Below are positions 1 through 19,661 of a stretch of 42,461 nt of DNA, one piece after another. Within the stretch, counting starts at the first letter, position 1, and each line of letters begins with the position of its first letter. The position numbers and the translations under genes were made by a program. This DNA is from a virus (taxonomy: Duplodnaviria > Heunggongvirae > Uroviricota > Caudoviricetes), in the IMG/VR virus record IMGVR_UViG_2703719365_000009; one strand, given 5' to 3'. The notes under the pieces are model-generated. The model made no database searches, was not told the origin of the DNA, and was given only the letters and a program-made list of their open reading frames with translations.

Positions 1-1349
1 CCATCGATGCCGCCAGCCGCACCCTGACGCTGGACCGTGAGGTGACACTGCCGGAGACCGGTGCCGCCACGGTGAACCTGATTAACGGCAGCGGTAAGCC
101 GGTGAGTGTGGACATCACCGCACACCCCGCGCCGGACCGGATACAGGTCAGTACCCTGCCTGATGGTGTGGAGACATACGGGGTGTGGGGACTCTCCCTG
201 CCGTCACTGCGCCGTCGCCTGTTCCGCTGTGTCTCCGTCCGGGAAAACACGGACGGCACCTTTGCCATCACGGCGGTGCAGCACGTACCGGAAAAAGAAG
301 CCATCGTGGATAACGGTGCCCGCTTTGAGCCGCAGTCAGGTTCCCTGAACAGCGTCATCCCACCGGCAGTACAGCACCTGACGGTGGAGGTGAGTGCAGC
401 TGACGGCCAGTATCTGGCGCAGGCTAAATGGGACACGCCGCGGGTGGTGAAGGGCGTGCGCTTCAGTCTGCGCCTGACCAGTGGTAAGGGAACGGATGCC
501 AGACTGGTGACCACCGCCATCACCGCAGACACGGAGCACCGTTTCAGCGGCCTGCCGCTCGGGGAATACACCCTGACGGTGCGGGCGATAAACAGCTATG
601 GCCAGCAGGGTGAACCTGCCACCACCACCTTCCGGATTGCCGCACCGGCAGCACCGTCGCGGATTGAGCTGACGCCGGGCTATTTTCAGATAACCGCCAC
701 GCCGCATCTTGCCGTTTATGACCCGACGGTACAGTTTGAGTTCTGGTTCTCGGAAAAGCGGATTGCGGATATCAGGCAGGTTGAAACCGCAGCCCGCTAT
801 CTTGGCTCGGCGCTGTACTGGATAGCTGCCAGTATCAATATCAAACCGGGCCATGATTATTATTTTTATATCCGCAGTGTGAATACTGTTGGCAAATCGG
901 CATTCGTGGAGGCTGTCGGTCGGGCGAGCGATGATGCGGAAGGTTACCTGGATTTTTTCAAAGGAGAAATCGGGAAAACACATCTGGCCCAGGAGCTGTG
1001 GACGCAGATTGATAACGGTCAGCTTGCGCCGGACCTGGCTGAAATCAGGACGTCCATTACGAATGTCAGCAATGAAATCACGCAGACCGTCAATAAAAAA
1101 CTGGAAAATCAGAGTGCGGCAATCCAGCAGATACAGAAAGTTCAGGTTGATACAAATAATAACCTGAACAGCATGTGGGCCGTGAAACTGCAGCAGATGC
1201 AGGACGGACGCCTTTATATTGCGGGTATCGGTGCCGGTATTGAGAATACGCCAGCAGGAATGCAGAGTCAGGTGCTGCTGGCGGCAGACAGGATTGCGAT
1301 GATTAATCCTGCGAATGGCAACACAAAGCCGATGTTTGTAACCAGGTGA
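1..1349 (+). pseudogene. J: Host specificity / tail tip protein J (lambda J-like), upstream portion; frame enters from window start and is cut by the Mu-like insertion
   Basis: Frame open from nt 3 (5-prime partial). Translation ends ...[22 protein letters not shown] then TR-stop at the insertion end; the conserved continuation [15 protein letters not shown] reappears in frame at 40716. Confidence 0.85.
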
Positions 1350-1515
1350 ATCATTTGATACCGACAAGGGTTTTAGTGAAAGGAGGTGAAATCACCTGTA
1401 AGATGCTGAAATAAAACAGGTGATGTATACTTCGGCCGGAAAACTCTTTTTGATACCGACTGCTCAACAAATAGTCAAAAGATCAAAAAACGGCGACACA
1501 TTTGATACTGCTAAT
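1347..1515 (+). repeat. Left end (attL-like): three transposase-binding-like repeats
   Basis: TTTGATACCGAC at 1354-1365 and 1449-1460, TTTGATACTGC at 1501-1511; first site TGAATCATTTGATACCGACAAG resembles the Mu L1 site as recalled; same motif inverted at the right end. Confidence 0.6.
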
Positions 1516-1692: not shown

Positions 1693-2304
1693 TTAACCAA
1701 CAACATTTTTCTTTACTGTCACTGCCCCTAATTCCTGGGTGGCGTTATTGCTCGAGTTGTACTTCTCAATAACGCGCAAAATCTCTTTGTCTGTTTCTTC
1801 ACTTCCCGCCATTCCTATCTTTATTGCATTTTTTAGTACGGGACGTAATGGCAAGGCATCAATGATGCTTTCTACCGCATCCTGGCTGATTGTAGATGTA
1901 TTCATTGCTGCCAGCCTGACAAGGTTGTTAGTACCTTCTCGCCTGATGAATGTAAGGATTAATTGCTTCTCTTGGGGGCTTAGAGAGCTAAGCGCCTGAT
2001 CAATACCCGAACCTGAATCGCAATTGTTTTCGATTTTTCCGCATTTATCTTCGTTCTTGCCTGTGACCAACCATTCGAGTGAACAATTACAGGCTTTAGC
2101 TATTAAGGCCAGTTTATCCAAAGGAGGGAAGTTTTTCCCCTTCCTGTAATTTCTTACTGTGGCTTCAGATAGTCCACAAAGGGTCGCCAGTTCGACGTTT
2201 GTCATGTTTCCCATAGCCATAGCTAAGCGTTCTGAAAATCGGTTTATTCCTTCCATATCAATAAACCGTTCCGCACTGGATACGGTTTTTTCTGCCTTAT
2301 CCAT
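1693..2304 (-). CDS. Prophage repressor (Mu c-like position; HTH-type regulator)
   Basis: 203-aa ORF divergent from ner-A-B; RBS AGGGGG before ATG at 2304; sits about 350 bp inside left end as in Mu; product call by position and HTH-like N-terminus. Confidence 0.7.
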   Translation of the reverse strand: MDKAEKTVSSAERFIDMEGINRFSERLAMAMGNMTNVELATLCGLSEATVRNYRKGKNFPPLDKLALIAKACNCSLEWLVTGKNEDKCGKIENNCDSGSGIDQALSSLSPQEKQLILTFIRREGTNNLVRLAAMNTSTISQDAVESIIDALPLRPVLKNAIKIGMAGSEETDKEILRVIEKYNSSNNATQELGAVTVKKNVVG

Positions 2305-2460
2305 ATAACCCCCTATAAAACAAAGAAATTATCGATATCGCATTTAATTTCGATATGCTCGCAAAAAACCGTTGATATCGAATTATTTTGCGATTATGAT
2401 TTACCTAAATCGATAACCGGTTTTGATTATCGGTTCAGGTAAACATGAGAGGATCACACA
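2305..2460. promoter_or_regulatory. Repressor/Ner operator region with divergent early promoters; about six TCGATA-type repeats
   Basis: Repeats TTATCGATATCG 2329-2340, TTTCGATATGC 2348-2358, GTTGATATCGAAT 2371-2383, CGATTATGAT 2391-2400, AAATCGATAACC 2408-2419, TTGATTATCGG 2423-2433; candidate rightward promoter -35 TTGATA 2372-2377 and -10 TATGAT 2395-2400. Confidence 0.6.
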
Positions 2461-2727
2461 ATGAGGGTATCCAGACAAGCATCGAATAATTTGTTTGTTC
2501 GAGAGGGGTGTGACTGGTCTGCTAAAGCGGTATATGCAGCCCTTGAAAACAAAGGCACAGACCTCCCTGAACTGGAAAGGGAGTTAGGATTAAAAAGCGG
2601 ATCAATGCGCAATGTGTTTTACCGCCAGTGCCGTAAATACGAAGCCGCCATCGCCGAAAAAATAGGGGTTGAACCTGCTGTAATCTGGCCCAGCAGATAC
2701 CAGGTGGACGCCAGAGAAGTGGCTTGA
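2461..2727 (+). CDS. ner: Ner-like DNA-binding early regulator
   Basis: 88 aa; C-terminal VIWPSRYQ motif matches Mu Ner as recalled; first gene of early operon with RBS GAGAGGA. Confidence 0.85.
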   Translation: MRVSRQASNNLFVREGCDWSAKAVYAALENKGTDLPELERELGLKSGSMRNVFYRQCRKYEAAIAEKIGVEPAVIWPSRYQVDAREVA

Positions 2728-2737
2728 TGGGGGATGT

Positions 2738-4828
2738 ATGTGGGTAACAGCAAAAGAATGTGTTGGTCTTCCTGATTTACCAATGATGGAACATAACATT
2801 CGCCATCGACTCACAAAAGCAGCTGCGGGAAATGCAGCCATGTTACGCAAACGTAAGGGGACAAAAGCAATCGAATTTAATATCGATTGTTTGCCTTCTG
2901 GCGCGCAACAAGTATTGCGTGAACGTTATGCCCTTCAACTGATGACGCAAAAAGCTGATGAATCACCGGCTCCGGTGGTGACAAAGGCCAGACGCTCGCC
3001 TGCCGTGGTTGATGCTGTGGAGGCATATCGCGGATCACCACAACTGATGGTTGAACGCCTTAATGCCCTGACTGAAAACCAGCGCCAGGTGGCTGATGCA
3101 CGAATCGCGATCGTCAGCGAAGTGATGAAAGTCGCGCAACAACCCGGTTTCAGCTGTGCGAAAGCTATCCGGTTTATCGTTGACAACCTGGCACGTTCGC
3201 AGCTGGACGAGCGCATTGTGGCAATGGTTGAGACGGCGAACGCCAAAAAGGGAAACAGCCGTGCGTTGAGTGAAATCACGCTGAAACGCTGGATTGCAGC
3301 CTTTAACAAGGCGCAGAACGCCGCCGAACGCCTGCTTTTACTGGCACCGGGTAAGCGCCAGGAAATAAAAGCCGAAGATATTAACTGGCTGCCCGAATTT
3401 CTGGCGCAGTATCGCCAGTCAAACGGCCGACCAATGACCGAGGCTTACGAGGATTTTGTCGCTGAATGGCAGCACCGGCACGCTGATGAGCCTTATATGC
3501 TCGATATCATGCCGTCTTATGACACCATTCGCCGCGCAATGAAGAAACTGCCGGAAGTGGTGAAACAAAAAGGCCGGGTGACCGGCAGTGAATACCGCCA
3601 GCTTGAGGGATTCACGCGCCGCGACTGGTCCAGAATGCCGGTGAATTATGTCTGGATTGGTGACGGTCACGGCATGAAGCTGAAATGCGCACACCCGGTT
3701 CACGGTCGGCCATTTGCACCGGAAGTGACCTTTGTTATCGACGGTGGCACGCGCTTTGTGGTGGGCTGGAGCCTTGACCTGGCTGAAAATGTTTTCGCCG
3801 TAGCCGGTGCCATACAGCACGGCATTCGCCATCACGGCAAACCGTTTCTGTATTACTCGGATAACGGCTCCGGGGAAACCGCCGACATCCTGGATAAGGA
3901 GGTTGTGGGGATACTGCCGCGACTGGGGATTAATCACCCGACCGGGATTGCCGGTAATCCGCAGGGACGAGGCATTATCGAACGGCTTAACCGCACATTA
4001 CCGATGCGCATAGCCCGTAAATACCGCACCTATTTCGGGAAAGGTGCAGATCGCGAGACGTTACGCAAAACCAACCGCGATTTACGCTCGGCATTTACTG
4101 CCCTGCAACAGGGCAAACGGCTGAACGTCCGGCAGCAGTCAGCGATGCGTGATTTACCGTCCTGGTCTGAACTGATTGATGCCATTCGTGACGGTGTTGA
4201 GTGGTACAACAACCGGCCGCACGATGAATTACCGGTGAAGCCGAACGGCAAGCATTACAGCCCGGCGGAGTTCAGAAAAAAACGCCTGGCGGAAGAGGAC
4301 ACGGAAATTGAATGGCTGTCCGATGTTGAGCTGCGGGATATGTTCCGGCCGATGGTGGAACGCCCTGTAAGACGCTGTGAAATACGCTGGCTGAATAATA
4401 TTTACTACGCGCCCGAGCTGCGTGACGAGCATGGTCGTAAGGTGCTTATCAGCTATGACATTCATGATGCCGAACGAATTACCGTACGTCGCCTGGATGG
4501 CAGCGTGATTTGCGAGGCGGTATGGGACGGTAATAAACGCGAAGCCTTCCCGGTCAGCGCGGAATACTACAAACAGCAGCAACGCCTTAAAGGCATGCGT
4601 AAACGCGCAGAGGAAAAAATCCGTGATGCCGAGGATGAGGTTGTCAACGTGCTGGAGCACAAGCCGCAGGAGCCCTGGCTGGAAAACATATACCGCCCTG
4701 TGGGTAATACGGTGGCCGTTCAGCAACCTGCCGTTGATGATGAGCCTGATGAAGAATACGAGCGTAATTTCCAGCGGGGATTGCAGTTGCTCGAAGCGAA
4801 ATTAAAAGAAAATGACCCGCTGGCCTGA
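2738..4828 (+). CDS. A: Transposase A (MuA-like DDE transposase)
   Basis: 696 aa; N-terminus MWVTAKECVGLPDLP resembles MuA N-terminus; position after ner. Confidence 0.93.
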   Translation: MWVTAKECVGLPDLPMMEHNIRHRLTKAAAGNAAMLRKRKGTKAIEFNIDCLPSGAQQVLRERYALQLMTQKADESPAPVVTKARRSPAVVDAVEAYRGSPQLMVERLNALTENQRQVADARIAIVSEVMKVAQQPGFSCAKAIRFIVDNLARSQLDERIVAMVETANAKKGNSRALSEITLKRWIAAFNKAQNAAERLLLLAPGKRQEIKAEDINWLPEFLAQYRQSNGRPMTEAYEDFVAEWQHRHADEPYMLDIMPSYDTIRRAMKKLPEVVKQKGRVTGSEYRQLEGFTRRDWSRMPVNYVWIGDGHGMKLKCAHPVHGRPFAPEVTFVIDGGTRFVVGWSLDLAENVFAVAGAIQHGIRHHGKPFLYYSDNGSGETADILDKEVVGILPRLGINHPTGIAGNPQGRGIIERLNRTLPMRIARKYRTYFGKGADRETLRKTNRDLRSAFTALQQGKRLNVRQQSAMRDLPSWSELIDAIRDGVEWYNNRPHDELPVKPNGKHYSPAEFRKKRLAEEDTEIEWLSDVELRDMFRPMVERPVRRCEIRWLNNIYYAPELRDEHGRKVLISYDIHDAERITVRRLDGSVICEAVWDGNKREAFPVSAEYYKQQQRLKGMRKRAEEKIRDAEDEVVNVLEHKPQEPWLENIYRPVGNTVAVQQPAVDDEPDEEYERNFQRGLQLLEAKLKENDPLA

Positions 4829-4898: not shown

Positions 4899-5831
4899 AT
4901 GACTGATATTAACGATGTAATCAAGACCATTGATGAACTTATTGATGGCGGCGTACTGACGCAGTATGCCATCGCCAGAGAGGCGGGAATTTCCGACGGC
5001 ACATTATCGGCTTTCCGTAAGGGAAAATATAAAGGCGATAACGCTGCTGTGGCTGCTTCCCTGCGTTCCTGGTATGAGAACTGGAATAAACAAAGCGCAC
5101 TGCCGGAACCGCCGCAGTTTGTGGAAACGCAGACAGTCCAGGAGCTGCGCGCACTGTTTCAGGCGGTTCGTCTGATGGGCTGTATTAACGTTATTGTGGG
5201 CGTACCGGGTGTGGGTAAAACGGCCACTGCCCGTAATTACTGCCAGGAGCAACCAAACACCTGGATGATCACCCTGTCACCCGCGCACTCCAGCGTCACG
5301 GAGTGTCTGCTGGAGCTGGCCGATGCGCTGGGGATTGATTACACCCGCGCGAACAAAGGGGCATTATCCCGCGCCATCCGCCGTCGCCTGATGGGAACGC
5401 GTGGACTGGTGATTGTGGATGAGGCGGATCATCTGGGTATTGACGGTCTGGAGCAACTCCGGGCAATTCAGGACGCCACGGGGATCGGGATGGTGCTTAT
5501 TGGTAACCCGCGCGGATTGTTTAAAGGTGGACGCCGCGCCTTTGATGATTTATCGCGCCTGTTCAGCCGTCTTGCCCGTACAAAACAACTTCGCAAGGCC
5601 AAAAAGGCGGATGTGCTGGCCATTGCCAGGGCATGGGGTATCAGTGGTGAGGCCGAGCTGGCCGTCATGCAGGCTATCGCTGAAAAGCCGGGAGCGTTAC
5701 GCGTTCTGACACATACGCTTAACCAGGCGTGGCTCACCGCCAGCGGTGAAGGCGCGGCGCTGACAGAAAAACATATTAATGCGGCCTTTAAAGAGGTTTA
5801 TACCAACCCTGAATTACTCTCACAGGTGTGA
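4899..5831 (+). CDS. B: Transposition ATPase B (MuB-like AAA+ target DNA activator)
   Basis: 310 aa; Walker A GVPGVGKT; strong overall resemblance to MuB including PEPPQFVETQTV and VIVDEADHLG segments. Confidence 0.93.
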   Translation: MTDINDVIKTIDELIDGGVLTQYAIAREAGISDGTLSAFRKGKYKGDNAAVAASLRSWYENWNKQSALPEPPQFVETQTVQELRALFQAVRLMGCINVIVGVPGVGKTATARNYCQEQPNTWMITLSPAHSSVTECLLELADALGIDYTRANKGALSRAIRRRLMGTRGLVIVDEADHLGIDGLEQLRAIQDATGIGMVLIGNPRGLFKGGRRAFDDLSRLFSRLARTKQLRKAKKADVLAIARAWGISGEAELAVMQAIAEKPGALRVLTHTLNQAWLTASGEGAALTEKHINAAFKEVYTNPELLSQV

Positions 5832-18346: not shown

Positions 18347-19661
18347 TTTAGGTTATGCCGCCACGCTTCCCTCAAAAGAGGCGGTGGCATACTTCCGCGC
18401 CAAAGGGGCGCATATCAGCTGGAACTGGTTCGAAACAGACGCGGATGTTCATGCCCGTTCATTCACGGCGGCAAAAGTGGCACGCCTGGACGTACTGACC
18501 ACACTACAGGCGGAAGTGCAGCGTGCTGTTGATGAGGGGATTTCACAGAAAGCATTTATCCGCACACTGACACCCCGCCTGCAAAAGCTGGGATGGTGGG
18601 GAAAGCAGATTGTGGTGGACAGCGCCGGTAACGCAGAAGAAGTGCAACTGGGCAGTCCCCGCCGTCTGGCGCTGATTTACAACGTGAACACCCGCGTGGC
18701 TTACAATGCCGGGCGTTACACGCAGATGATGAACAACACGGACACGCATCCGTTCTGGCAGTATGTGGCGGTGATGGACAGCCGCACCCGCCCGGCGCAT
18801 TCCGCCCTTAACGGGCAGGTATTCCGCTATGACGATCCGTTCTGGAATACACACTACCCACCCAATGGCTGGAACTGCCGCTGCCGTGTCCGGCCATTGT
18901 CTCAGACCCGTCTGGATGCAATGGGGTTATCCGTTTCATCCGGTCAGGATCATCTTTCCACCCGCAATGTTGAGGCTGGCGTGGATAAGCAGACCGGAGA
19001 AGTCAGAGAAATGCCGGTGACCACATATTCAGATGGCACCAGAACCATGACACCGGATGTGGGCTGGTCATATAACCCCGGCTCGGCGGCGTTCGGCACA
19101 GACCAGGCGTTGATCCGTAAACTGATCGAGGTGAAAAGCCCGGCGCTGCGGGAAATGGTGGTGCAGGAGATGAACAACAGCCCGGAGCGGCAGCTGGCGT
19201 TCCGCATCTGGGCAAAAAACATCATGAAAACCCGGCGAGGCGGTAACGATATCCGCACGCTGGGCTTTATGACCGAAAGCATTGCGCAGGCGGTGGAAAG
19301 CCGGACGGGAACGCCACCGGCCCGCCTGCTGGCGATGAGCGGTAAAAATGTGCTCCATGCGGACAGCGTGAAACATCAGAATGACGGCATCGCCCTGACG
19401 CCGGAGGATTTCGGGCGATTACCGGCAATGCTGGCAAAGCCAAAAGCGGTACTGTGGGATAAACGCCACAACAATCTGATGTATATCGTGGAAAGTAAGG
19501 ATGGCAGTGTGCAGATTGCCGTTAATGCGCCGTACAGCCTGAAGCGTCAGCCGGATAAACTGGATGTGATTGTGAATGCTTACCGGGTTATCAATATGGA
19601 TAAGCTGAAATCGGATATCCGGGGCGGAATGCTTGAGGTACTGGAAGGAGATATTGATTAA
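18330..19661 (+). CDS. Head morphogenesis protein (Mu F / gp30-like)
   Basis: 443 aa; follows portal, overlapping start. Confidence 0.8.
   Translation: MAQGIDLGYAATLPSKEAVAYFRAKGAHISWNWFETDADVHARSFTAAKVARLDVLTTLQAEVQRAVDEGISQKAFIRTLTPRLQKLGWWGKQIVVDSAGNAEEVQLGSPRRLALIYNVNTRVAYNAGRYTQMMNNTDTHPFWQYVAVMDSRTRPAHSALNGQVFRYDDPFWNTHYPPNGWNCRCRVRPLSQTRLDAMGLSVSSGQDHLSTRNVEAGVDKQTGEVREMPVTTYSDGTRTMTPDVGWSYNPGSAAFGTDQALIRKLIEVKSPALREMVVQEMNNSPERQLAFRIWAKNIMKTRRGGNDIRTLGFMTESIAQAVESRTGTPPARLLAMSGKNVLHADSVKHQNDGIALTPEDFGRLPAMLAKPKAVLWDKRHNNLMYIVESKDGSVQIAVNAPYSLKRQPDKLDVIVNAYRVINMDKLKSDIRGGMLEVLEGDID

What the first reader, a model, noticed from the sequence alone, without database searches (positions are those of the whole stretch)
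2305..2460. Operator region with about six TCGATA-core repeats between repressor and ner
The 156-bp divergent control region holds repeated (A/T)TCGATA(T/A)CG-like motifs, several palindromic, overlapping a candidate early promoter (-35 TTGATA, -10 TATGAT). In Mu the equivalent region is both the lysis-lysogeny switch and the transposition enhancer. The repeat sequence here is different and would define the immunity specificity of this phage.
Basis: partly seen in the sequence, partly recalled or inferred. Interest (0 to 1): 0.35.

Follow-up and report, generated by a model that had tools for sequence, protein, structure and literature searches.

The report
Mu-like prophage immunity switch region
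This 156-bp stretch is the on/off control region of a Mu-like transposable prophage, where the phage repressor and a second regulator (Ner) most likely bind different repeats around the early promoter; it is an ordinary kind of phage switch, with its parts now assigned more precisely.

Summary
The repeats are real. TCGATA occurs 5 times in 2305-2460 against 20 in the whole 42 kb window, and no shuffle puts more than 3 in any 156-bp span. They are not one family, though.

- **Left group.** Two 18-bp dyads of form ATCGMA-N6-TKCGAT lie at 2337-2354 and 2377-2394. The second fills the spacer of the early promoter (-35 TTGATA 2372-2377, -10 TATGAT 2395-2400). A third copy sits inside the repressor gene at 2017-2034.
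- **Who binds them.** These dyads travel with the repressor's N-terminal helix-turn-helix domain, which has the P22 c2/434 fold and not the Mu c fold. Natural mosaics and about 18 immunity types show this, so they are the likely immunity determinants.
- **Right group.** The TCGATA/TATCGG copies at 2410-2433 belong to a 44-bp palindrome (2400-2443). Heteroimmune relatives share it. It travels with ner and sits where Mu has its Ner site, so it is most likely the Ner operator.
- **Leftmost copy.** The TATCGATA at 2330-2337 varies among 99.4%-identical copies.
- **Enhancer.** An enhancer role for the TCGATA repeats is unlikely.

Verdict: a new member of a known kind, of modest interest. Nothing here has been tested by binding or transcript mapping.

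The parts
1693..2304 (-). Repressor gene (c-like), 203 aa. It has an N-terminal P22 c2/434-type HTH domain, a disordered linker and an all-helical C-terminal domain.
   Evidence: ORF. Pfam Phage_CI_repr and HTH_3. PHROG 3037 'transcriptional repressor', E 7e-59. AF2 model with Foldseek matches to P22 c2 and 434 Cro, rmsd 0.8-1.6 A. No S24 peptidase domain and no Mu-c-type domain.
2017..2034 (.). Intragenic operator-like dyad ATCGCAATTGTTTTCGAT. It lies in the linker codons IENNCD of the repressor gene, 320 bp from the left operator.
   Evidence: Perfect match to ATCGMA-N6-TKCGAT. It is the best match of each type's own operator inside its own c gene, at 287-318 nt from the ATG, in 7 of 10 types and also in L153 and L154. 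It co-varies with the type's own operator. It encodes residues 91-96, inside the segment 88-98 with pLDDT below 50. Binding is inferred.
2309..2313 (-). Shine-Dalgarno of the repressor gene (GGGGG on the minus strand).
   Evidence: Read from the sequence. Conserved in the Salmonella relatives.
2328..2333 (-). Candidate -10 (GATAAT) of a proximal repressor promoter, 23 nt upstream of the c ATG. Weak and unresolved.
   Evidence: Read from the sequence. A similar hexamer (TAAAAT, ATAAAT, GCAAAT) sits at the same distance in the Salmonella relatives. The -35 is poor, and the scan found no strong minus-strand promoter.
2330..2337 (.). Probably not a constrained site.
   Evidence: Positions 2334-2336 vary (GAT to GAC, AAC or GGC) among copies that are 99.4% identical.
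2337..2354 (.). Left operator dyad ATCGCA-TTTAAT-TTCGAT, a proposed repressor site.
   Evidence: Invariant in 7 of 8 close copies, while the flanking bases 2334-2336 and 2355-2356 vary. Replaced by other repeats in heteroimmune relatives. Only its right half-site is kept in the Salmonella relatives.
2363..2368 (+). A-tract just upstream of the -35, a possible UP-like element.
   Evidence: Read from the sequence. An A-rich run at the same place in most relatives. Inference only.
2372..2400 (+). Early promoter Pe: -35 TTGATA (2372-2377), 17-bp spacer, -10 TATGAT (2395-2400). The start is predicted near 2407.
   Evidence: 10 of 12 match. A -35/N17/-10 at the same position in 18 of 18 immunity types (one with N18). 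Same layout as Mu Pe, TTTACA-N17-TATCTT. The start site has not been mapped.
2377..2394 (.). Right operator dyad ATCGAA-TTATTT-TGCGAT. It fills the Pe spacer and is the proposed main repression site.
   Evidence: Invariant in all close copies. Conserved as ATCGRATTATTTTGCGAT in Salmonella relatives with the same recognition helix, including L153, which has an unrelated C-terminal domain. Spacer identity correlates with HTH identity.
2400..2443 (.). 44-bp palindrome made of two TTAYC-N6-GRTAA dyads (2401-2416 and 2427-2442). Proposed Ner operator covering the Pe start.
   Evidence: 4 hits in the window, 0.1 expected. Shared by all heteroimmune relatives that have a related Ner, and unchanged in the L001 type. 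Replaced together with Ner in the Sp18 type. Same position as the CTAAGT-N6-ACTTAG palindrome in Mu.
2447..2453 (+). Shine-Dalgarno of ner (GAGAGGA).
   Evidence: Read from the sequence. Invariant in the relatives.
2461..2727 (+). ner gene, 88 aa.
   Evidence: Pfam HTH_35, E 1.7e-20. Mu Ner 1NEQ, E 8e-8, and EnrR 7F9H, E 6.5e-7.
2738..4828 (+). Transposase A. Its N-terminus carries the Mu-type enhancer-binding winged-helix domain.
   Evidence: Pfam HTH_Tnp_Mu_1 (residues 6-143) and Mu-transpos_C. The N-terminus also hits PHROG 7148 'transcriptional repressor'.
2870..2887 (.). Operator-like dyad ATCGAATTTAATATCGAT inside A (codons IEFNID). Doubtful as a site.
   Evidence: One mismatch to the dyad pattern. 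The identical sequence occurs in the heteroimmune L001 type, and the homologous codons are the same in L002, L003 and L004 despite their different repressors.

Best explanation
The region is the immunity and early-control switch of a Mu-like (Sp18-group) transposable prophage. It is built from two separable modules.

**Module 1, repressor-specific.** It consists of the early promoter Pe and two 18-bp dyad operators, ATCGMA-N6-TKCGAT, set 40 bp apart. One dyad (2377-2394) occupies the whole spacer between the -35 and -10 of Pe. A dimer of the P22/434-type HTH repressor bound there would exclude RNA polymerase and keep ner, A and B silent in the lysogen. The other dyad (2337-2354) lies over the most plausible proximal repressor promoter. 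A third dyad inside the repressor gene's linker codons (2017-2034) may allow cooperative or looped binding, or autoregulation. These dyads define immunity specificity.

**Module 2, Ner-linked.** It is a 44-bp palindrome (2400-2443) starting one base after the -10 and covering the Pe start. It is most likely the operator of Ner, which would turn down early (and possibly repressor) transcription after induction, as in Mu.

**Shown here:** the repeats, their statistics, their conservation and co-variation, the protein folds, and the conservation of the promoter.

**Inferred:** all binding, the transcription starts, looping, and the direction of autoregulation.
For: - **Enrichment.** TCGATA is clustered far beyond chance, and the dyad pattern gives 3 perfect hits plus one 1-mismatch hit against 0.41 expected.
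- **Promoter.** Pe scores 10 of 12. Its -35/N17/-10 is kept in 18 of 18 immunity types while the spacer changes.
- **Natural mosaics.** The L001 type has an identical ner, an identical right palindrome, an identical A N-terminus and a nearly identical repressor C-terminus. Its HTH domain and its left repeats differ. L153 has the same recognition helix and the same operators but an unrelated C-terminal domain.
- **Salmonella relatives.** Their repressors are 64-72% identical to this one, with the same recognition helix. They keep the right operator and the -10.
- **Co-variation.** HTH identity correlates with Pe-spacer identity (Spearman 0.53, permutation p 0.003).
- **Polymorphism.** In 99.4%-identical copies the dyads and the palindrome are invariant, while 5 intergenic SNPs hug the edges of the left dyad.
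- **Repressor fold.** The N-domain matches P22 c2 and 434 Cro, which bind 14-18-bp dyads as dimers.
- **Palindrome.** It tracks Ner and sits where Mu has a palindrome between Pe and ner. Ner is homologous to Mu Ner and to EnrR. EnrR binds an AT-rich palindrome, and one of its two top ChIP-seq peaks lies upstream of its own gene (PMC9023278).
- **Co-residence.** Window-type and Sp18-type immunity modules occur together in the genomes AP042687, AP022811 and AP043606.
Against: - No binding or transcript data exist for this phage group.
- The HTH/operator correlation is between physically adjacent DNA, so linkage alone produces some of it.
- The left dyad is only half conserved in the Salmonella relatives.
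- The window-type and L001-type right operators still share 12 of 18 bases, so heteroimmunity between those two is not proven.
- The A N-terminal domain co-varies with the palindrome exactly as Ner does. The Ner assignment therefore rests on position and on analogy to Mu.
- No convincing repressor promoter was found.
Confidence: 0.72

Rival explanations
1. All six TCGATA-core repeats are one family of repressor (and Ner) sites that together define immunity, and as in Mu they double as the transposition enhancer.
For: All copies share the CGATA/TATCG core. In Mu the operators overlap the enhancer, about 1 kb from the left end (PMC3145075). These repeats lie 1000-1100 bp from the left end at 1337.
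Against: The right-hand copies sit in a palindrome that is identical in the L001 type and is also present in relatives whose repressors recognise CGTACTTTTG, AAAATCCGC or CCAACAAAAAACC repeats. The leftmost copy is polymorphic. The repressor is not homologous to the A N-terminus. The L001 type keeps the same A N-terminus with different left repeats.
Confidence: 0.08
2. The 44-bp palindrome 2400-2443 is, alone or in addition, the transposition enhancer. It would be bound by the winged-helix N-terminal domain of transposase A rather than (only) by Ner.
For: A carries the Mu enhancer-binding domain. The first ~55 residues of A are swapped together with the palindrome in the Sp18 type, while the rest of A stays nearly identical. 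The palindrome is the only repeated element of the gap shared by the window type and the L001 type, which have the same A N-terminus. Its centre, TTTGATTATCG, resembles the end repeats TTTGATACCGA.
Against: Ner is swapped in the same events, so there is no discrimination. In Mu the element at this position is the Ner site, and the enhancer lies upstream in O1-O2 (my knowledge). No conserved IHF consensus was found.
Confidence: 0.18
3. The palindrome acts as a hairpin in a leftward (repressor) transcript that starts to its right, affecting stability, termination or translation. It would not be a protein-binding site.
For: The minus-strand RNA of 2396-2448 folds at -21.2 kcal/mol, z = -7.1. The outer arms change symmetrically between types (TTACC...GGTAA against TTATC...GATAA), which preserves pairing.
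Against: A symmetric protein site gives the same pattern. No promoter was found to the right of it. No U-run follows it. The predicted Pe leader alone is unstructured, z = 0.6. No Rfam family matches.
Confidence: 0.07
4. The repeats are a chance product of an AT-rich intergenic region.
For: The region is 33% GC against 53% for the window.
Against: Shuffling the region alone gives 5 or more TCGATA in 0.05% of trials. The dyad pattern was reached in 0 of 100 shuffles. The dyads are conserved across species.
Confidence: 0.01

Closest known systems
Bacteriophage Mu early control region (c, operators O1-O3, Pe and Pc, the Ner site, ner)
   Same: Divergent repressor and ner genes about 1 kb from the left end. 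An operator lies inside the -35/-10 spacer of Pe (in Mu, CTTTTCAGTAAT inside TTTACA-N17-TATCTT). A palindrome lies between Pe and ner. The Ner, A and B proteins are homologous.
   Different: The repressor has a P22/434-type HTH, not the Mu c winged helix shared with the MuA N-terminus. The operators are 18-bp dyads rather than Mu's arrays of asymmetric repeats. No IHF site was recognised. An operator/enhancer overlap is not expected and is disfavoured by the L001 mosaic. The Ner palindrome has a different sequence (GATAA type against CTAAGT).
Pseudomonas transposable phages of the D3112/B3 group (CI-like c repressor, overlapping pC/pE promoters, ner-like gene)
   Same: Mu-like transposable phages whose left-end repressor is a CI-like HTH protein. 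Their repressors are 42-44% identical to this one over the HTH domain. A divergent ner-like early operon with overlapping promoters is described for B3 and Fc02 (PMC9936078).
   Different: Only the HTH domain is related. The host and the operator sequences differ. The ner and A genes here are closer to the enterobacterial lineage.
Lambdoid repressor-operator systems: P22 c2, 434 and lambda cI
   Same: The DNA-binding domain has the same fold. The operators are dyad-symmetric, 18 bp as in P22, and occur in multiple copies that overlap divergent promoters.
   Different: There is no S24 autocleavage domain. The C-terminal domain is all-helical with no structural match. The second regulator is Ner, not Cro. 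The element is a transposable phage.
Distal auxiliary operators and repressor looping: coliphage 186 FL/FR, lambda OL-OR, TP901-1 OD (from my knowledge; TP901-1 operators appear in the abstract of PMC7250872)
   Same: An extra operator copy lies a few hundred bp from the main switch (here 320 bp), inside coding sequence.
   Different: Looping is untested here. The distal site lies inside the repressor's own gene, in the linker codons.
EnrR, a Ner-family protein of Edwardsiella (PDB 7F9H/7F9I)
   Same: A homologue of the same length class (90 aa; E 6.5e-7). It binds an AT-rich palindrome, AATAAATNATTTATT. One of its two top ChIP-seq peaks lies upstream of its own gene.
   Different: It is a global nucleoid-associated regulator in a decayed island. 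Its half-site differs in spacing and sequence.

Membership tests
Mu-type lysis/lysogeny control region | Divergent repressor and ner genes flanking a short control region near the left end, followed by transposase A and B | tested here: met
   ORFs and Pfam. The left end is at 1337 and the control region at 2305-2460.
Mu-type lysis/lysogeny control region | Repressor homologous to Mu c, that is, sharing the winged-helix DNA-binding domain of the MuA N-terminus | tested here: not met
   The repressor hits Phage_CI_repr and HTH_3 only. Its fold is P22 c2/434. The A N-terminus, not the repressor, hits HTH_Tnp_Mu_1 and PHROG 7148.
Mu-type lysis/lysogeny control region | Early promoter with a repressor operator inside or overlapping it | tested here: met
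   The dyad 2377-2394 fills the Pe spacer. The same arrangement is seen in 18 types. Binding itself was not tested.
Mu-type lysis/lysogeny control region | IHF site between operator clusters | tested here: inconclusive
   The only near-match to WATCAANNNNTTR is the reverse of the -35 (TATCAACGGTTTT), read by eye. It is not conserved in the relatives.
Mu-type lysis/lysogeny control region | Operator region doubles as the transposition enhancer | not testable with these tools
   Indirect evidence only. The L001 mosaic argues against the left dyads. The palindrome remains possible.
CI/434/P22-type repressor-operator system | Five-helix HTH DNA-binding domain | tested here: met
   AF2 pLDDT is about 90 for residues 20-85. 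Foldseek TM 0.86-0.89 and rmsd 0.8-1.6 A to 3JXB and 2CRO.
CI/434/P22-type repressor-operator system | Several dyad-symmetric operators of 14-18 bp overlapping the regulated promoters | tested here: met
   Three perfect ATCGMA-N6-TKCGAT dyads, two of them in the gap.
CI/434/P22-type repressor-operator system | C-terminal S24 (LexA-like) autocleavage domain for SOS induction | tested here: not met
   No Peptidase_S24 hit. The C-domain is all-helical and has no PDB match.
Ner-family operator | A Ner homologue encoded immediately downstream | tested here: met
   HTH_35, E 1.7e-20. Mu Ner 1NEQ, E 8e-8.
Ner-family operator | Palindromic site between the early promoter and ner that co-varies with Ner | tested here: met
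   The palindrome 2400-2443 is shared by relatives with MRNVFYR- or LRNAFYR-type Ner. It is replaced in the Sp18 type, which has a different Ner. The confound is that the A N-terminus co-varies as well.
Ner-family operator | Ner binds the site and represses Pe and Pc | not testable with these tools
   Needs EMSA or footprinting and reporter assays.

The most novel reading that the evidence does not exclude
The repressor gene carries an operator for its own product inside the codons of its disordered inter-domain linker (2017-2034). This site would be kept at the DNA level across heteroimmune lineages, changing in step with each lineage's operator sequence even where the encoded peptide changes completely (IENNCD, IESKFD, ANKKTQ, NEIDFE). 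It would let the repressor loop about 320 bp of DNA, or block its own gene. In parallel, the enhancer function that Mu places in its operators would have moved to the Ner palindrome, because this repressor no longer shares a DNA-binding domain with the transposase.
Probability: 0.4. Interest if true: 0.5.

Novelty: new member of a known kind. Interest (0 to 1): 0.3.

Why it matters
Sp18-group Mu-like phages are common in Shiga-toxin-producing E. coli. They occur at 1-3 copies per genome and insert into other prophages, including Stx phages (PMC10132054). Here one sits inside a lambdoid tail-tip gene.

Knowing which bases set immunity lets these prophages be typed into immunity groups from sequence alone. 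It predicts which of them can co-reside or superinfect. It also gives defined targets, the two dyads and the palindrome, for induction and transposition experiments.

The modular layout is a clean natural example of how phage switches are rebuilt by recombination. One module is the HTH domain with its operators. The other is Ner with its palindrome and the first ~55 residues of A.

If the intragenic operator is real, it would add a case of regulatory DNA constraining a protein linker. None of this changes current understanding of phage switches.

Tried and rejected
- **Genome scan.** A scan of genome contigs with a Ner alignment returned only one locus, a 1-kb Edwardsiella contig.
- **Metagenome scan.** Only 4 of the matched stretches encoded Ner.
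- **Repressor promoter.** No minus-strand candidate is both strong and position-conserved. I list GATAAT 2333..2328 only as a candidate.
- **IHF site.** The only near-match is the reverse of the -35, and it is not conserved.
- **A-gene dyad 2870-2887.** I rejected it as a supported operator. It is identical in the heteroimmune L001 type, and the homologous codons do not track the repressor type in L002, L003 and L004.
- **RNA element.** No Rfam hit at E up to 1. The Pe leader is unstructured.
- **Repressor C-terminal domain.** No PDB sequence hit and no structural match, so its oligomeric state is unknown.
- **Ner versus A N-terminus.** I tried to tell them apart as the palindrome's ligand by looking for mosaics that split them. 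None was found. They are swapped together in the Sp18 type and kept together in all others.
- **L001 co-residence.** The L001 type is too rare in E. coli for this test, being present in only 2 genomes.
- **Papers.** The classic Mu papers PMC336651 and PMC4486318 are not held. Statements on the Mu and D108 Ner sites rest on my own knowledge plus the Mu sequence itself.

Full report
**Context**

The window holds a Mu-like transposable prophage. Three TTTGATAC-type repeats lie at the left end: TTTGATACCGAC at 1354 and 1449, and TTTGATACTGC at 1501. Three inverted copies lie at the right end, at 40634, 40666 and 40688.

The left terminus TGTAACCAGGTGAATCATTTGATA matches the start of the Klebsiella phage Kp4866-3 record and of the Sp18-type O157 prophages. 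This puts the element at about 1337-40715, with a 5-bp duplication ATGTT. It interrupts a lambdoid tail-tip J gene (Pfam Ig_J).

The same immunity region occurs at 99% identity or more in 34 complete E. coli genomes. The best match is O157:H7 strain Z570.

The genes around the finding are:
- the repressor, 1693-2304 on the minus strand;
- ner, 2461-2727;
- transposase A, 2738-4828;
- B, 4899-5831.

TCGATA occurs at 2330(-), 2332(+), 2350(+), 2376(-) and 2410(+), against 20 hits in the whole window. No 156-bp span in 300 shuffled windows held more than 3. Shuffling the AT-rich region alone reached 5 in 0.05% of trials. The promoter match TTGATA-N17-TATGAT (2372-2400) is as described.

**The repeats fall into two classes**

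I compared the gap with relatives from E. coli genomes, IMG/VR contigs, metagenomes, Salmonella, Morganella, Proteus, Edwardsiella and a Klebsiella phage. It splits at about 2395.

*The ner-proximal part.* The roughly 60 bp next to ner are kept in every relative that has a related Ner. They consist of the palindrome TTTACCTAAATCGATAACCGGTTTTGATTATCGGTTCAGGTAAA followed by the ner ribosome-binding site.

*The repressor-proximal part.* The roughly 90 bp next to the repressor differ from type to type and carry type-specific repeats:
- CGTACTTTTG in L003 and L004;
- AAAATCCGC in L002;
- ATCGGATTATTGTTCG in L001, L155 and L156;
- CCAACAAAAAACCGA in L038 and Kp4866-3;
- AAAATACC in the Sp18 type;
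- TTCGAA-N6-TTCGAA in L024.

In all 18 types a -35 hexamer, a 17-bp spacer (18 bp in one) and a TAnnnT -10 sit at the same place. One copy of the type's own repeat fills the spacer. This is strong comparative support for Pe and for an operator inside it. Mu uses the same design.

**The unit in this phage is an 18-bp dyad**

The pattern ATCGMA-N6-TKCGAT has three perfect matches in 42 kb: 2017-2034, 2337-2354 and 2377-2394. There is also a one-mismatch match at 2870-2887. The expected count is 0.41, and 0 of 100 shuffles reached 4.

Eight copies that are 99.4% identical show 17 SNPs between 1350 and 2800. Six are intergenic, and five of those sit at 2334-2336 and 2355-2356, directly flanking the left dyad. 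The dyad itself is invariant in 7 of the 8 copies. One metagenomic copy has TTCGAT changed to TCCGAT.

The right dyad and the palindrome show no variation.

**The dyads go with the repressor's HTH domain**

- The L001 type has an identical Ner, an identical palindrome, an identical A N-terminus and a nearly identical repressor C-terminal half. Its HTH domain and its left repeats are different.
- Salmonella relatives with the same recognition helix (SEATVRNYRKGK) keep ATCGRATTATTTTGCGAT and TATGAT.
- L153 keeps that helix and those operators but has an unrelated C-terminal domain.
- The closest other helix (TEATIRNYRKGK, in L024, L025 and L154) goes with TTCGAA-type dyads at the same 40-bp spacing.
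- Across 18 types, HTH identity correlates with spacer identity (rho 0.53, permutation p 0.003). Linkage contributes to this correlation.
- The modelled N-domain superposes on P22 c2 and 434 Cro. Those proteins bind such dyads as dimers (established knowledge).
- Genomes AP042687, AP022811 and AP043606 carry both the window-type and the Sp18-type modules. This is as expected for heteroimmune phages.

**The palindrome**

It consists of two TTAYC-N6-GRTAA dyads, at 2401-2416 and 2427-2442. It starts one base after the -10, so it covers the predicted start of Pe.

It is unchanged in the heteroimmune L001 type, so it cannot set repressor immunity. In the Sp18 type it is replaced together with Ner.

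Mu has a palindrome, CTAAGT-N6-ACTTAG, at the equivalent place. From my own knowledge, that is the Mu Ner site.

The Ner protein here is homologous to Mu Ner and to EnrR. EnrR binds an AT-rich palindrome, and one of its two top ChIP-seq peaks lies upstream of its own gene (PMC9023278).

I therefore assign the palindrome to Ner, with about 55-60% confidence. The first ~55 residues of A, which form its enhancer-binding winged helix, are swapped in the same events. An enhancer role therefore cannot be excluded. A leftward transcript through the palindrome would fold into a strong hairpin.

**An unexpected extra site**

The dyad at 2017-2034 encodes residues 91-96 (IENNCD). These fall within the segment 88-98, which is modelled as disordered with pLDDT below 50.

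In 7 of 10 immunity types, and also in L153 and L154, the best match of the type's own operator within its own repressor gene falls 287-318 nt from the ATG. The sequence there follows the type's operator while the peptide changes: ATCGAACTTTGATTCGAT encodes IESKFD in L003, and TGCGTCTTTTTGTTCGCA encodes ANKKTQ in L004. The diagonal of the cross-type matrix is highest for L004, L002 and L038, and is tied for highest in L003.

Other types (L001, L155, L156, Kp4866-3) instead have a copy about 66 nt into the gene.

I rate a real distal operator at about 0.6, and the full novel reading, which adds a relocated enhancer, at 0.4. Its role, whether looping or a roadblock, is speculation.

**What remains open**

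- The repressor promoter has only weak candidates.
- The oligomeric state of the helical C-domain is unknown.
- It is not known whether the dyad in A (2870-2887) is ever used. It is probably a coding coincidence.
- The location of the enhancer is unknown.

**Comparison with known systems**

The region works like the Mu switch in layout. It works like P22/434 in how the repressor reads DNA. Its nearest described relatives in kind are the CI-like repressors of D3112/B3-type Pseudomonas transposable phages.

It fails the membership feature 'Mu-c-type repressor' and the lambdoid feature 'S24 autocleavage domain'.

Published genome papers mention these STEC Mu-like phages but not their control regions.

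It is a new, uncharacterised member of a known kind, and of modest interest.

Noticed in passing
window 1332-1336, 1337-40715, 40716-40720: The Mu-like prophage (about 39.4 kb) is inserted inside a lambdoid tail-tip J gene, whose reading frame resumes at 40716. It is flanked by a 5-bp duplication, ATGTT. The exact boundary is ambiguous by 1-3 bp because the target reads TGTTTGTT. The right terminus ends ...GCGCTAT and not the canonical CA.
   Followed up: partly
window 1354-1365, 1449-1460, 1501-1511; 40634-40642, 40666-40677, 40688-40699: Three TTTGATAC(C/T)G repeats sit at each end in inverted orientation. They are presumably the transposase end-binding sites. The centre of the Ner palindrome (TTTGATTATCG) and the Pe -35 region (TTGATATCGA) resemble them.
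   Followed up: partly
window 2334-2336 and 2355-2356: Among 99.4%-identical copies, 5 of the 6 intergenic SNPs lie within 3 bp of either edge of the left operator dyad. Three more (2014, 2026, 2030) lie in or next to the intragenic dyad. Operator edges look like polymorphism hot spots. The cause is unknown.
   Followed up: partly
window 2310-2332 and 2486-2508: A 23-nt inverted repeat (83% complementary) links the repressor leader and Shine-Dalgarno region with a stretch inside ner. It could only pair in a leftward transcript that starts beyond 2508. It is not conserved in the L001 type.
   Followed up: partly
window 2870-2887: An operator-like dyad, ATCGAATTTAATATCGAT, lies inside transposase A (codons IEFNID). 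It is also present in heteroimmune relatives with the same A gene, so it is probably a coding coincidence.
   Followed up: yes
L148 4222-4390 compared with window 2738-2905: In Sp18-type O157 prophages only the first ~55 residues of transposase A differ from the window's A, and the rest is nearly identical. The recombination breakpoint of the immunity module therefore lies inside the enhancer-binding domain of A.
   Followed up: partly
L153 1501-2097: A Salmonella relative has the same HTH domain and operators but an unrelated repressor C-terminal domain that resembles the Sp18-type repressor's. This is domain shuffling within the repressor gene.
   Followed up: no
window 2260-2269, 2282-2291, 2363-2372: There are three copies of AA(T/A)AAACCGT, one of them inverted. 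Two lie in the first codons of the repressor gene (encoding EKT and ERFI) and one lies just upstream of the Pe -35. Relatives have similar A-tract-CCG motifs at both places. In the Kp4866-3/L038 type the operator itself is CCAACAAAAAACCGA.
   Followed up: no
window 19588-19603: TTATCAATATGGATAA, deep inside the prophage, matches the TTAYC-N6-GRTAA dyad of the Ner palindrome. It was not examined.
   Followed up: no
L024 1403-1921: One heteroimmune relative sits next to a gene that by eye resembles an RfaH/NusG-type antiterminator, and next to a gene whose product looks conjugation-related. This suggests insertion into a plasmid or an ICE. It was not checked with any tool.
   Followed up: no
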